Assembly: GCF_057098645.1 (NCBI RefSeq)
Contig: NZ_CM169472.1
DNA length: 64,000 bases
Strand: one strand, 5' to 3'
The position numbers were made by a program. Below, piece by piece: positions 34,401 through 37,400 of the stretch. How positions within the stretch are numbered: the first letter of the stretch is position 1; every line of letters starts with the position of its first letter.

Positions 34401-37400
34401 GCTATGCTGAAAAGGAAAAAAGTAAAACCGATTACCCTTCGTGATGTCACCATTATTGATGACGGTAAACTGCGTAAAGCCATTACCGCAGCATCACTGG
34501 GTAATGCAATGGAATGGTTTGATTTTGGTGTTTATGGTTTTGTTGCTTACGCATTAGGTAAAGTTTTTTTCCCGGGGGCTGACCCCAGCGTGCAGATGGT
34601 TGCTGCACTTGCCACTTTCTCCGTTCCCTTTCTGATTCGACCGCTTGGCGGACTCTTCTTTGGTATGTTGGGCGATAAATATGGTCGCCAGAAGATCCTC
34701 GCTATCACTATTGTGATTATGTCGATCAGTACGTTCTGTATTGGCTTAATACCGTCCTACGACACGATTGGTATTTGGGCACCGATTCTGCTGTTGATCT
34801 GTAAGATGGCACAAGGTTTCTCGGTCGGCGGTGAATATACCGGGGCGTCGATATTTGTTGCGGAATACTCCCCTGACCGTAAACGTGGCTTTATGGGCAG
34901 CTGGCTGGACTTTGGTTCTATTGCCGGGTTTGTGCTGGGTGCGGGCGTGGTGGTGTTAATTTCGACCATTGTCGGCGAAGAGAACTTCCTCGATTGGGGC
35001 TGGCGTATTCCGTTCTTTATCGCTCTGCCGTTAGGGATTATCGGGCTTTACCTGCGCCATGCGCTGGAAGAGACTCCGGCGTTCCAGCAGCATGTCGATA
35101 AACTGGAACAGGGCGACCGCGAAGGTTTGCAGGATGGCCCGAAAGTCTCGTTTAAAGAGATTGCCACCAAACACTGGCGCAGCCTGTTGACATGTATTGG
35201 TCTGGTAATTGCCACCAACGTGACTTACTACATGTTGCTGACCTATATGCCGAGTTATTTGTCACATAACCTGCATTACTCCGAAGACCACGGGGTGCTG
35301 ATTATTATCGCCATTATGATCGGTATGCTGTTTGTTCAGCCGGTGATGGGCTTGCTGAGTGACCGTTTTGGCCGTCGTCCGTTTGTGCTACTTGGTAGTG
35401 TTGCCCTGTTTGTGTTGGCGATCCCGGCGTTTATTCTGATTAACAGTAACGTCATCGGTCTGATTTTTGCCGGGTTACTGATGCTGGCGGTGATCCTTAA
35501 CTGCTTTACGGGCGTTATGGCTTCTACCTTGCCAGCGATGTTCCCGACGCATATCCGTTACAGCGCGCTGGCGGCGGCATTTAATATTTCGGTGCTGGTT
35601 GCCGGTCTGACGCCAACATTGGCGGCCTGGCTGGTCGAAAGCTCGCAGAATCTGATGATGCCAGCCTATTACCTGATGGTAGTGGCGGTGGTTGGTTTAA
35701 TCACCGGCGTAACCATGAAAGAGACGGCAAATCGTCCGTTGAAAGGTGCAACACCGGCGGCGTCAGATATACAGGAAGCGAAGGAAATTCTCGTCGAGCA
35801 TTACGATAATATCGAGCAGAAAATCGATGATATTGACCACGAGATTGCCGATTTGCAGGCGAAACGTACCCGCCTGGTGCAGCAACATCCGCGAATTGAT
35901 GAATAAGCTGAAACGGATGGCCTGATGTAACGCTGTCTTATCAGGCCAATTGAACTCTTAAGGTTCACTTAATCTCTGACGCGCATACTCTCCTCCAGGT
36001 TAACGGAGGAGAGTGCAATGAAAAACCGTGTTTATGAAAGTTTAACTACCGTGTTCAGCGTGCTGGTGGTCAGCAGCTTTCTTTATATCTGGTTTGCCAC
36101 GTACTGATCTTTCTTCAGCCGTACCCAGGCCCGCGTGCCGGAAGTCTCTTGCCGGTTTTGCAGGAAAAACTGCCCGTGATGCAACTGTGTAATGCGGCTG
36201 ACAATACTTAACCCCAGACCAATCCCGCCATAACGGCTGTCCATTCGTACAAACGCTTTACTCAACTCCCCGCATTTACTCTCATCAATACCTGGTCCTT
36301 CATCTTCAACTGCCATGACCGCTCCGCCATCTTCTTGCAGCTTAATCATAATGTTGCTGCCTTGCGGGCTGTAACGATGGGCGTTTTCTACCAGGTTTCG
36401 CAATAACATCCGCAGCAGGGTTGCATCACCCTGAACGGTGATGTCGGCGGTGCTCTCTGGCAATAGCAGGGTTTGCTGTCGCTGGTCGAGCATGGTACTG
36501 AGTTCGTCATACGAGGGGAGAATGACATCTTCCAGCAGTTTTACATGTTGATAATTACCGGAAGAAAATGACTGTCCGGCACGCGCCAGTTGCAGCAGCT
36601 GGGAGACGCTCTCCATCATCTGATCAAGCCGTGCCACTAACGGTGCTACATCAATGTGATGCGTTTTCGCCAGCAGTTCCAGATGCAAACGTACCCCCGC
36701 CAGTGGCGTTCGCAGTTCGTGCGCGACGTCAGCGGTAAACAACCTTTCGTTATCCAGCGTGCTGGTCAGGCGACTGACCAGATCGTTTAACGCCGAAACC
36801 ACCGCTTCGATTTCGAGGGTGGCGCTGTGAATGGCAATGGGCGTTAAGTTGTCGGCGGTGCGCGCTTCCAGCTCTTTTTGCAGCTCCGCCAGCGGGCGGG
36901 TGATGCGGCGTACCGCCTGATAGCAGATAAATAGCGTCAGGCTGACCATAAAGACGCCGGGGACAATCAGGCTGGCGACCGCCTCGCGGATCTCACGCAT
37001 GATGTGGCGATCGTTGTTGCGATTGTCGCGTAGCGCCTGCTCAAACAGCTGAATCTGCTCGGTACTTTCATGCCATAGCCAGAAGACGCTGATCAGCTCA
37101 AACACCAACAAAATGGCCCCGATGGTCAATATCAGCCGTTGGCGCAGCGATATTGGTCGGCGCAGAAAACGCATCAGATTCAATTAGTTTTCCTCATTCG
37201 CGACAAGCATATAGCCAAAGCCGCGCACGGTGCGGATACGGGCTTTGCCCACTTTGTCGCGCAGATTGTGGATATGCACTTCCAGGGTGTTGGTCGAGGG
37301 TTCATTGTCCCAGTTATAGATGTCGTTGTAGAGAATTTCCCGATGCACCGGACTGCCTGCTTTGAGCATTAACCGTGACAGCAGAGCATATTCTTTGGGC

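What the first reader, a model, noticed from the sequence alone, without database searches (positions are those of the whole stretch)
35956..36107. Unannotated 29-codon pmrR with PmrA box, overlapping the basS 3' end
A strong-RBS small ORF (36018..36107) encoding a single-TM peptide is preceded by a PmrA box (CTTAAG-N5-CTTAAT) and a 5'-UTR hairpin (TCTCCTCCAGG-TTAAC-GGAGGAGA). It matches what I recall of PmrR. Its last 25 nt overlap the convergent basS coding end, so the transcripts of the regulator and its target are antisense to each other.
Basis: partly seen in the sequence, partly recalled or inferred. Interest (0 to 1): 0.45.

Follow-up and report, generated by a model that had tools for sequence, protein, structure and literature searches.

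The report
Known pmrR gene; misassigned upstream hairpin
The small gene is real, but it is the already annotated and studied E. coli pmrR, a 29-residue membrane peptide that blocks the lipid A enzyme LpxT; the one point that may be new is that the hairpin in front of it probably belongs to RNA reading in from the upstream gene and hides the ribosome-binding site on that RNA.

Summary

It is not unannotated. RefSeq calls it "LpxT activity modulator PmrR", K-12 lists it as b4703, and the curated NCBIfam model matches it at 74 bits against a cutoff of 30. The PmrA box, the overlap with pmrB, translation, membrane location and the pmrR-basS antisense pair are all published.

My added result concerns the hairpin. 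Across 48 distinct species sequences, the box, a 10-nt spacer, a -10 hexamer N-A-N-A-C-T and the hairpin are conserved, with compensatory changes in the stem. The 5' arm starts inside the -10, so a PmrA-driven mRNA would start at about 35996-97 and lack that arm. Two published datasets place plus-strand RNA 3' ends at 36018-36020, at the base of the hairpin.

The hairpin is therefore most likely the terminal stem-loop of proP read-through RNA. It would keep PmrR synthesis dependent on PmrA. This is inferred, because no transcription start has been mapped.

Syntenic PmrR-like peptides in Klebsiella and other genera are annotated only as hypothetical proteins.

The parts
35907..36019 (+). proP 3'UTR, from the proP stop codon to the mapped RNA 3' end. 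It carries a REP-like hairpin, the PmrA box and the terminal SD hairpin.
   Evidence: proP CDS ends at 35906. Published plus-strand 3' ends: K-12 4332116 (Term-seq) and 4332117/8 (TRS), which are window 36018-36020. The window and K-12 are collinear here. Fold -41.4 kcal/mol, z -4.56.
35919..35947 (+). REP-like hairpin GGCCTGAT...ATCAGGCC between proP and the pmrR promoter.
   Evidence: Read from the sequence and paired in the fold. The REP resemblance is from my own knowledge and was not tested.
35957..35973 (+). PmrA (BasR) box CTTAAG-GTTCA-CTTAAT of the pmrR promoter.
   Evidence: One of two matches in 64 kb against 0.04 expected. T-T-A-A of both half-sites is invariant in 51 species sequences. 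Deleting the box in E. coli gives the PmrR-loss phenotype (PMC8129183).
35984..35989 (+). Inferred -10 hexamer CATACT, 10 nt downstream of the box.
   Evidence: Alignment A1 columns 37-42 read N-A-N-A-C-T, with A2 and T6 invariant across genera. This is an inference; no transcription start was mapped.
35996..35997 (+). Predicted start of the PmrA-dependent pmrR transcript (inferred, not mapped).
   Evidence: It lies 7-8 nt after the -10 T6, which places the box at about -40 to -24. PmrA footprints of -19 to -44 are reported at K. pneumoniae pbgP (PMC2565834). RNA from 35997 is unstructured: -7.6 kcal/mol, z +1.18.
35987..36014 (+). Conserved hairpin: 5' arm 35987-35996, loop 35997-36004, 3' arm 36005-36014 (which contains the SD).
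   Evidence: Conserved in 44 of 48 distinct species sequences at z < -2. 79.6% of cells paired against 35-54% for slid controls; covariation score 0.274 against 0.156 for shuffles, 0 of 500 reaching it.
36005..36011 (+). Shine-Dalgarno sequence GGAGGAG of pmrR.
   Evidence: Read from the sequence. On average 8.4 of 10 SD-region bases are paired when both arms are present, against 4.4 of 10 in RNA from the presumed start.
36018..36107 (+). pmrR CDS: 29 aa, single hydrophobic helix, an inhibitor of LpxT.
   Evidence: Translation, membrane association and a deletion phenotype are reported in PMC11429745.
36083..36107 (.). 25-nt coding overlap between pmrR (+) and basS (-).
   Evidence: Noted in PMC8004244 and PMC8129183. 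In other genera the overlap ranges from -7 to +57 nt.
36108..36207 (+). pmrR 3'UTR, antisense to the basS coding region, up to the mapped primary 3' end.
   Evidence: TRS 3' terminus at K-12 4332300-4332312 with peak 4332305, which is window 36207.
36083..37183 (-). basS (pmrB) sensor kinase CDS. K-12 annotates a start 9 nt further in.
39539..39555 (-). Second PmrA box of the locus, at the eptA-basRS promoter. It overlaps the 3' arm of the adiC terminator hairpin.
   Evidence: The adiC primary 3' end at K-12 4335633 is window 39535.

Best explanation
This is the known E. coli gene pmrR (b4703). It encodes a 29-residue inner-membrane peptide that inhibits the lipid A phosphotransferase LpxT when the BasS/BasR (PmrB/PmrA) system is active.

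Shown by others: phospho-PmrA acts through the box at 35957-35973.

Inferred here: the box replaces a -35 element 10 nt upstream of a weak -10 hexamer (CATACT, 35984-35989). The PmrA-driven mRNA therefore starts at about 35996-35997, has a leader of about 21 nt with an open Shine-Dalgarno sequence, runs through the 25-nt coding overlap, and ends about 100 nt further on inside basS. That makes it antisense to the basS 3' end (a published 3' end supports this).

The hairpin at 35987-36014 is not part of that mRNA, because its 5' arm lies in the -10 and the region before the start. It forms only in RNA that begins upstream, which in E. coli is proP read-through. In that RNA it pairs the Shine-Dalgarno sequence and marks the RNA 3' end, mapped by others at 36018-36020. 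Upstream transcription therefore cannot produce PmrR, and PmrR synthesis stays dependent on PmrA.

I am about 95% confident in the gene identity and the PmrA control. I am about 55% confident in the insulator role of the hairpin.
For: Identity: NCBIfam PmrR equivalog at 74.2 bits against a cutoff of 30, full length. RefSeq and K-12 annotate it. UniProt and NCBI name it.

PmrA control: the box pattern occurs twice in 64 kb against 0.04 expected, both times at the known PmrA promoters of the locus. Deleting the box in E. coli gives the PmrR-loss phenotype (PMC8129183).

Conservation: the box, spacer, N-A-N-A-C-T hexamer and hairpin are present in 51 aligned species sequences. These come from basS loci selected without reference to pmrR.

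Hairpin under selection: 79.6% of cells paired against 35-54% for slid controls. 50 cells show changes on both sides, against 20.2 +/- 3.6 in shuffles (0 of 500 reach the observed value). Pair 43-65 occurs as AU 17, CG 16, GC 6 and GU 6. 44 of 48 sequences have z < -2.

Hairpin tied to pmrR rather than proP: it is kept whether the upstream gene is proP or a uvrB-like gene. The upstream gene is co-directional in 48 of 53 loci, and its stop codon sometimes abuts the box.

Read-through RNA exists and ends at the hairpin: Term-seq gives 4332116, and TRS gives 4332117/8, which is window 36018-36020.

The predicted PmrA-driven mRNA is unstructured: -7.6 kcal/mol, z +1.18. The proP 3'UTR ends in the hairpin.

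Sense folds are more stable than antisense folds in 31 cases against 14, p = 0.004.
Against: No mapped transcription start was available. The original Salmonella paper is not held, and transcription start supplements gave nothing. Excluding the 5' arm from the mRNA therefore rests only on promoter geometry.

The hairpin is equally stable on the antisense strand in E. coli: -20.2 against -19.9 kcal/mol, and it forms in the antisense fold.

The G.U against A.C strand asymmetry holds only in the core helix (38 against 15). It disappears over all 12 pairs (49 against 57), and constraint on the Shine-Dalgarno sequence confounds it.

PMC8004244 found that a pmrB plasmid needs at least 103 nt of downstream sequence, which is just enough to include the whole hairpin. 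That suggests a role in basS expression.

The species sequences are phylogenetically related, so the shuffle statistics overstate independence.

Two loci with apparently divergent upstream genes (L011, L050) still keep the hairpin.
Confidence: 0.85

Rival explanations
1. The hairpin is a true 5'-UTR element of the PmrA-dependent pmrR mRNA. It would throttle or condition translation, for example as a thermometer or as a target for opening by an sRNA or protein.
For: The hairpin occludes the Shine-Dalgarno sequence, and the extended fold also pairs the AUG. It is conserved together with pmrR. PMC11429745 notes that both loss and excess of PmrR are harmful, so tight control is plausible.
Against: A start upstream of 35987 would put the PmrA box (35957-35973) at about -14 to -30, over the -10 region, which would repress rather than activate. 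The invariant A2 and T6 of the hexamer at 35984-35989, at a fixed 10-nt spacing from the box in all genera, mark it as the -10. That places the start at the top of the 5' arm.
Confidence: 0.12
2. The hairpin works mainly on the other strand, as a 3'-end stem-loop of the basS (eptA-basRS) mRNA that stabilises or terminates it.
For: PMC8004244: with 86 nt downstream of pmrB (ending at window 35997, so lacking one arm) there was no colistin resistance and about 315-fold less pmrB mRNA. With 103 nt (ending at 35980, whole hairpin) resistance was partly restored. The antisense hairpin folds well, z -2.69.
Against: No T-run follows the hairpin on the minus strand, and the scan found no terminator-like site there. 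pmrB mRNA half-life did not differ between the +86 and +126 constructs. Across species the sense fold is more stable, 31 against 14. No minus-strand 3' end in this region turned up in the searched, partly truncated supplements. The +103 and +126 boundaries also add the pmrR -10 and the PmrA box, so those data are confounded by pmrR expression itself.
Confidence: 0.2
3. The inverted repeat is a DNA-level element, such as a palindromic protein-binding site or a cruciform, at the pmrR promoter.
For: It overlaps the -10 and start region, where a repressor could act.
Against: The arm sequences change between genera while complementarity is kept, including G.U pairs. Loop length and sequence vary freely from 4 to 12 nt. 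That pattern fits RNA pairing and does not fit a conserved protein-recognition sequence.
Confidence: 0.03

Closest known systems
PmrR of Salmonella enterica and E. coli (b4703; NCBIfam NF033224 'LpxT activity modulator PmrR'; Kato et al. 2012 Mol Cell, cited from the reference lists of PMC8004244 and PMC8129183)
   Same: Same gene: a full-length match to the curated model, a PmrA box promoter, convergent overlap with pmrB, and a membrane peptide that inhibits LpxT.
   Different: Nothing differs for the gene itself. The published descriptions I could read do not discuss the hairpin that occludes the Shine-Dalgarno sequence or how it relates to the transcription start.
Protection from outside transcription (fold-back inhibition) in IS10/Tn10 and IS50. 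This comparison is from my own knowledge (Davis, Simons and Kleckner 1985).
   Same: An inverted repeat whose distal arm covers the ribosome-binding site. The gene's own promoter fires inside or after the proximal arm, so only read-through RNA forms the hairpin and is left untranslatable.
   Different: Here the protected gene is a chromosomal regulon member, not a transposase. The start inside the repeat is inferred, not mapped. The hairpin also coincides with a mapped 3' end of the upstream mRNA.
Convergent excludons and antisense 3' overlaps (ExcludonFinder, PMC12288877)
   Same: pmrR-basS is listed there as a convergent excludon from RNA-seq coverage. A mapped pmrR 3' end lies 125 nt inside basS.
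   Different: No mutual exclusion or RNase III processing has been shown for this pair. The coding overlap is not conserved, ranging from -7 to +57 nt across genera.
Small membrane-protein feedback regulators of two-component systems, for example MgrB with PhoQ (PMC11429745)
   Same: A short single-helix membrane peptide that is induced by the system whose output it modulates.
   Different: PmrR acts on an enzyme, LpxT, rather than directly on the kinase. Its feedback on PmrB is indirect, through lipid A charge and Fe3+ binding, as summarised in PMC8004244.

Membership tests
PmrR (NCBIfam NF033224.1, equivalog) | Score above the curated cutoff over the full length of the model. | tested here: met
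   74.2 bits against a cutoff of 30, residues 1-29 of 29.
PmrR (NCBIfam NF033224.1, equivalog) | Peptide of about 29 aa with one hydrophobic helix, associated with the membrane. | tested here: met
   29 aa with a hydrophobic stretch LTTVFSVLVVSSFLYIWFA. Membrane fractionation of PmrR-6xHis is reported in PMC11429745.
PmrR (NCBIfam NF033224.1, equivalog) | Located convergent to, and at the 3' end of, pmrB/basS. | tested here: met
   The same position is found in 53 of 80 basS loci from other species.
PmrR (NCBIfam NF033224.1, equivalog) | Binds and inhibits LpxT. | not testable with these tools
   Only genetic evidence from the literature for E. coli (PMC8129183).
PmrA/BasR-activated promoter | Direct repeat YTTAAK-N5-YTTAAK. 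| tested here: met
   35957-35973 is an exact match. Two matches in 64 kb against 0.04 expected. Conserved across genera.
PmrA/BasR-activated promoter | Box placed at the -35 position, about 10 nt upstream of the -10, relative to a mapped start. | tested here: inconclusive
   The 10-nt spacing to the conserved N-A-N-A-C-T hexamer is met. No mapped start could be obtained.
PmrA/BasR-activated promoter | Transcription depends on PmrA. | not testable with these tools
   Literature only. The box deletion phenotype is in PMC8129183. A reporter in PMC11429745 showed no low-Mg induction.
Convergent excludon | Transcripts of the two convergent genes overlap. | tested here: met
   The CDS overlap of 25 nt is read directly. 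A published 3' end at window 36207 gives 125 nt of RNA overlap with the basS CDS. The pair is listed in PMC12288877.
Convergent excludon | Mutually exclusive expression, or RNase III processing of the duplex. | not tested
   No data found.
Read-through insulation (fold-back) hairpin, IS10 type | An inverted repeat whose 3' arm covers the SD or start codon. | tested here: met
   On average 8.4 of 10 SD-region bases are paired across species.
Read-through insulation (fold-back) hairpin, IS10 type | The gene's own transcription start lies inside or after the 5' arm. | tested here: inconclusive
   Inferred from the -10 position. No start has been mapped.
Read-through insulation (fold-back) hairpin, IS10 type | Read-through RNA containing both arms exists. 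| tested here: met
   Published plus-strand 3' ends at window 36018-36020, with the full hairpin in the printed sequence context. The upstream gene is co-directional in 48 of 53 loci.
Read-through insulation (fold-back) hairpin, IS10 type | Read-through RNA is not translated; disrupting the arms relieves the block and compensatory changes restore it. | not testable with these tools
   Needs reporter experiments.
Intrinsic (Rho-independent) terminator | A G+C-rich stem followed directly by a U-run. | tested here: not met
   No T-run follows the hairpin on either strand. The scan does not report it as a terminator. The 3' end 4 nt after the stem therefore more likely reflects exonuclease trimming or non-canonical termination.

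The most novel reading that the evidence does not exclude
The hairpin is a conserved read-through insulator built into the pmrR promoter. Its 5' arm is the -10 and pre-start region, and its 3' arm is the Shine-Dalgarno sequence. Only PmrA-initiated transcripts would be translatable, and RNA from the upstream gene (proP, or a uvrB-like gene in other genera) would be capped at the hairpin and silenced. In addition, the PmrR family, with this same promoter and hairpin module, extends to Klebsiella, Raoultella, Kluyvera, Kosakonia, Phytobacter and related genera. There the peptide is currently only a 'hypothetical protein', and the curated model misses it.
Probability: 0.5. Interest if true: 0.35.

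Novelty: already known. Interest (0 to 1): 0.17.

Why it matters
The finding as submitted adds nothing new. pmrR, its PmrA box, its overlap with basS and their antisense transcripts are all annotated or published.

Three smaller points could matter to people working on polymyxin resistance and small proteins:

1. The hairpin interpretation gives a concrete, testable reason why PmrR output can stay strictly PmrA-dependent although it sits directly downstream of a co-directional gene.

2. It offers a simpler reading of the puzzling requirement for a pmrB 3' downstream region in PMC8004244. The critical boundaries of those constructs coincide with the pmrR -10 plus hairpin (+103) and with the PmrA box (+126).

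3. Klebsiella and several other clinically relevant genera carry an unnamed PmrR-like peptide with the same promoter module. This is relevant to colistin resistance studies there.

Tried and rejected
I instead collected basS loci from species genomes and searched next to them.

- The original Salmonella PmrR paper (PMC3465083) is not held.

- Searches for a mapped pmrR transcription start failed. The Cappable-seq supplements had no entry near the predicted position. The Rend-seq paper has no held supplements. The reporter paper gives no start.

- The terminator-like site inside the pmrR CDS (36061-36085) first looked like the reported 'termination inside pmrR'. I rejected this because the published 3' ends are at 36018-36020 and 36207, not near 36085, and the stem is weak (6 pairs).

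- RNAalifold on the MAFFT alignment predicted only 5 pairs, because several rows are shifted by 1-2 columns. Per-sequence folding was used instead.

- I expected the G.U against A.C count to be a clean strand test. It holds only for the core helix and disappears over all 12 pairs, so I downgraded it.

- A first script for finding ungapped stems crashed on sequences with bulged stems and was replaced.

- A literature search combining pmrR with Shine-Dalgarno, stem-loop or read-through terms found no relevant paper.
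Full report
**1. What is in the sequence**

The window around the finding reads proP (+, ends 35906), a 111-nt spacer, a 29-codon ORF at 36018-36107 (+), and then convergent basS (36083-37183, -), basR, eptA and adiC.

- The ORF encodes MKNRVYESLTTVFSVLVVSSFLYIWFATY.
- A Shine-Dalgarno sequence, GGAGGAG, lies at 36005-36011.
- The direct repeat CTTAAG-GTTCA-CTTAAT lies at 35957-35973.
- The strict PmrA-box pattern YTTAAK-N5-YTTAAK occurs only twice in the 64-kb window, against 0.04 expected by chance. The other copy is in front of eptA.
It is a 10-bp stem, ACTCTCCTCC (35987-35996) with GGAGGAGAGT (36005-36014), and an 8-nt loop. RNA 35975-36040 folds at -22.7 kcal/mol, z = -3.87.
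- The last 25 nt of the ORF overlap basS.

**2. It is the known gene pmrR, and it is annotated**

- A megablast of 35880-36200 finds the region in 5408 of 5426 complete E. coli genomes. Every record listed annotates the ORF as "pmrR: LpxT activity modulator PmrR".
- K-12 MG1655 lists it as b4703, "small regulatory membrane protein PmrR", at 4332116-4332205.
- The curated NCBIfam equivalog model NF033224.1 matches full-length at 74.2 bits against a cutoff of 30. Pfam has no family for it.
- Public sources name the exact sequence PMRR_ECOLI or LpxT activity modulator PmrR.

**3.

- PMC8129183 shows the E. coli sequence with the PmrA box and the overlap with pmrB. The authors deleted only the box so as to spare pmrB. 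The deletion made a pmrA-constitutive strain susceptible to polymyxin B and resistant to deoxycholate, and deleting lpxT restored polymyxin B resistance.
- PMC8004244 notes the 90-bp ORF with its 25-bp overlap.
- PMC11429745 detects its translation by Ribo-RET, shows that PmrR-6xHis is in the membrane fraction, and reports deletion and overexpression phenotypes.
- PMC12288877 lists pmrR-basS among convergent excludons.

**4. Comparative analysis**

I collected 80 basS loci from distinct species genomes, chosen without reference to pmrR.

A PmrR-like ORF of 28-33 aa lies convergent to the basS 3' end in 53 of them:
- Genera with the ORF: Escherichia, Citrobacter, Klebsiella, Raoultella, Kluyvera, Kosakonia, Phytobacter, Pseudocitrobacter, Trabulsiella, Yokenella, Pluralibacter and others.
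- Genera without it: Pectobacterium, Rahnella, Rouxiella, Ewingella and Chimaeribacter.

The coding overlap with basS ranges from -7 to +57 nt. The 25-nt overlap is therefore an Escherichia detail and not a conserved requirement.

The peptides share their length, an invariant F21 and W25, and a tail of the form [S/G/A]-F-x-x-x-W-x-x-T-[Y/F].

The upstream region is strikingly conserved:
- the PmrA box at -58 to -63 from the ATG;
- a spacer of about 10 nt;
- a hexamer N-A-N-A-C-T whose A2 and T6 are invariant, as expected of a -10 element;
- an inverted repeat whose 5' arm begins inside that hexamer and whose 3' arm carries the SD.

**5. The hairpin is under selection for pairing**

On the alignment:

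| Measure | Observed | Control |
|---|---|---|
| Cells forming a standard pair | 79.6% | 35-54% with the partner slid by 1-3 columns |
| Cells changed on both sides | 50 | 20.2 +/- 3.6 in shuffles (0 of 500 reach 50) |
| Covariation score | 0.274 | 0.156 in shuffles (0 of 500) |

One pair, 43-65, occurs as AU 17, CG 16, GC 6 and GU 6.

Per-sequence folding avoids alignment errors:
- 44 of 48 distinct sequences have a hairpin with z < -2; the mean is -4.5.
- On average 8.4 of 10 SD-region bases are paired.

Caveat: the sequences are related, so the shuffle counts are not probabilities.

**6. Which RNA carries the hairpin**

The conserved -10 lies at 35984-35989, so the PmrA-driven start should be about 35996-35997. 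That is the last base of the 5' arm or the first base of the loop.

- This places the box at about -40 to -24. That fits class II activation and the PmrA footprint of -19 to -44 reported at K. pneumoniae pbgP (PMC2565834).
- The eptA promoter in the same window has the same geometry.
- An RNA starting at 35997 is essentially unstructured: -7.6 kcal/mol, z +1.18, and 181 of 200 shuffles fold at least as well.
- RNA arriving from proP contains both arms.
- Published data show that such RNA exists and ends at the hairpin. Term-seq (PMC7815308) lists a plus-strand 3' end at K-12 4332116, and its printed sequence context contains the whole hairpin. TRS (PMC10687069) lists 4332112-4332126 with peaks at 4332117/8.
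- With the verified offset, these are window 36018-36020, which is 4-6 nt after the stem.
- The paper's remark that SEnd-seq shows the upstream gene terminating "inside" pmrR is therefore about this hairpin.

The hairpin is kept whether the upstream gene is proP or, in most other genera, a gene ending ...RDQLHQLRELFIAAS. I recognise that ending as a UvrB-type C-terminus, but I did not test it.

- The upstream gene is co-directional in 48 of 53 loci.
- In several loci its stop codon abuts the PmrA box, which leaves no room for a separate terminator.
- The single locus with the ORF but no SD-pairing hairpin (L059) has a divergent upstream gene.

**7. Most likely mechanism**

PmrA~P binds the box and recruits RNA polymerase to the weak -10. 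The resulting mRNA has a short leader with an open SD, and PmrR is made and inhibits LpxT.

Transcripts that enter from upstream fold the hairpin. This occludes the SD, and in the extended fold also the AUG, and defines a stable 3' end at the first bases of the ORF. They therefore make no PmrR.

This is the logic of "protection from outside transcription" known from IS10 and IS50 (my own knowledge). I rate it at about 55%, because the transcription start is inferred and not mapped.

No U-run follows the hairpin on either strand. It is therefore not a canonical intrinsic terminator, and the 3' end may come from exonuclease trimming.

**8. Rivals**

(a) *A true 5'-UTR hairpin.* This needs a start upstream of 35987, which would put the activator box over the -10 region. 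I consider it unlikely.

(b) *A role on the other strand in the basS 3'UTR.*
- For: in E. coli the antisense hairpin is equally stable. PMC8004244 found that a pmrB plasmid needs at least 103 nt of downstream sequence.
- Confound: those construct ends map to window 35997 (+86, lacking one arm and the whole pmrR promoter), 35980 (+103, whole hairpin plus the -10) and 35957 (+126, exactly including the PmrA box). pmrR expression itself could therefore explain the results.
- The authors' observation of more phosphoethanolamine modification with +126 than with +103 would fit stronger PmrR-mediated LpxT inhibition. This is my inference.
- Across species the sense fold is more stable, in 31 cases against 14, p = 0.004.
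- The G.U against A.C asymmetry supports the sense strand only in the core helix (38 against 15). Over all pairs it does not (49 against 57).
- The two roles are not mutually exclusive.

(c) *A DNA-level palindrome.* Covariation and the freely varying loops argue against it.

**9. Antisense relationship**

The primary pmrR 3' end lies at K-12 4332305, which is window 36207. Plus-strand RNA therefore overlaps the basS CDS by 125 nt. Whether this has any regulatory effect is unknown. The variable coding overlap across genera argues against a constraint on the overlap itself.

**10. Verdict**

The finding is a correct rediscovery of a known, annotated and experimentally studied gene, so its novelty is "already known" and its interest is low.

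Two modest additions come from this analysis:
- the reassignment of the hairpin to read-through RNA, which is inferred and testable;
- the recognition that syntenic PmrR-like peptides with the same promoter and hairpin module exist in Klebsiella and other genera. There the curated model scores them at 20 bits or less, or not at all, and sources call them hypothetical.

Noticed in passing
L010-L062 (e.g. L019 3550-3639, minus strand; K. pneumoniae ATCC 13883): Klebsiella, Raoultella, Kluyvera, Kosakonia, Phytobacter, Yokenella, Trabulsiella, Pluralibacter and Pseudocitrobacter carry a 30-aa PmrR-like ORF convergent to basS, with the same PmrA box, -10 and hairpin module. The NCBIfam PmrR model scores these peptides at 20 bits or less, or not at all. 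Public sources call them hypothetical or uncharacterised. The curated family looks too narrow.
   Followed up: partly
window 39530-39568, minus strand: The perfect palindrome CCAACCTTAAG-aa-CTTAAGGTTGG followed by CTTAATTTTGCTTTG looks like the adiC intrinsic terminator. A published adiC primary 3' end at K-12 4335633 maps to window 39535. Its 3' arm and T-tract are also the PmrA box of the eptA promoter (39539-39555). At both PmrA promoters of this locus, the 3'-end hairpin of the upstream gene overlaps promoter elements.
   Followed up: partly
window 35957, 35980 and 35997 (= +126, +103 and +86 downstream of pmrB in PMC8004244): The plasmid boundaries that decided colistin resistance in PMC8004244 coincide with pmrR promoter parts. 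The +86 construct lacks the promoter and one hairpin arm, +103 adds the -10 and the whole hairpin, and +126 adds exactly the PmrA box. The reported 'pmrB 3' downstream region' effect may reflect pmrR expression or the hairpin, rather than a pmrB 3'UTR element.
   Followed up: partly
L008-L062, upstream of the PmrR-like ORF: Outside Escherichia and C. amalonaticus, the eptA-basRS-pmrR cluster does not sit next to proP. It lies downstream of a co-directional gene ending ...RDQLHQLRELFIAAS, a UvrB-like C-terminus (recognised from memory, not tested). In L039, L060 and L062 the stop codon of that gene lies within a few nt of the PmrA box.
   Followed up: partly
window 36061-36085, plus strand: A weak terminator-like site (a 6-pair stem TGCTGG/TCAGCA followed by GCTTTCTTTA) lies inside the pmrR CDS, before its stop codon. 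No published 3' end maps there, so it is probably a chance match.
   Followed up: yes
window 35919-35947, plus strand: A REP-like hairpin GGCCTGAT-N13-ATCAGGCC lies between the proP stop codon and the PmrA box. One of the two differences from K-12 in this stretch (35929, A against G) lies in its loop.
   Followed up: no
window 36202-36214, plus strand: The published primary pmrR 3' end (peak at window 36207) has no obvious terminator hairpin or U-run. It could be a processing site in the sense/antisense duplex with basS mRNA, or a product of colliding convergent transcription.
   Followed up: no
window 37174-37183, minus strand: The basS start differs between annotations. The longest ORF, and the RefSeq record for the O157 strain, use TTG at 37183 (366 aa). 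K-12 annotates a start 9 nt downstream (363 aa).
   Followed up: no
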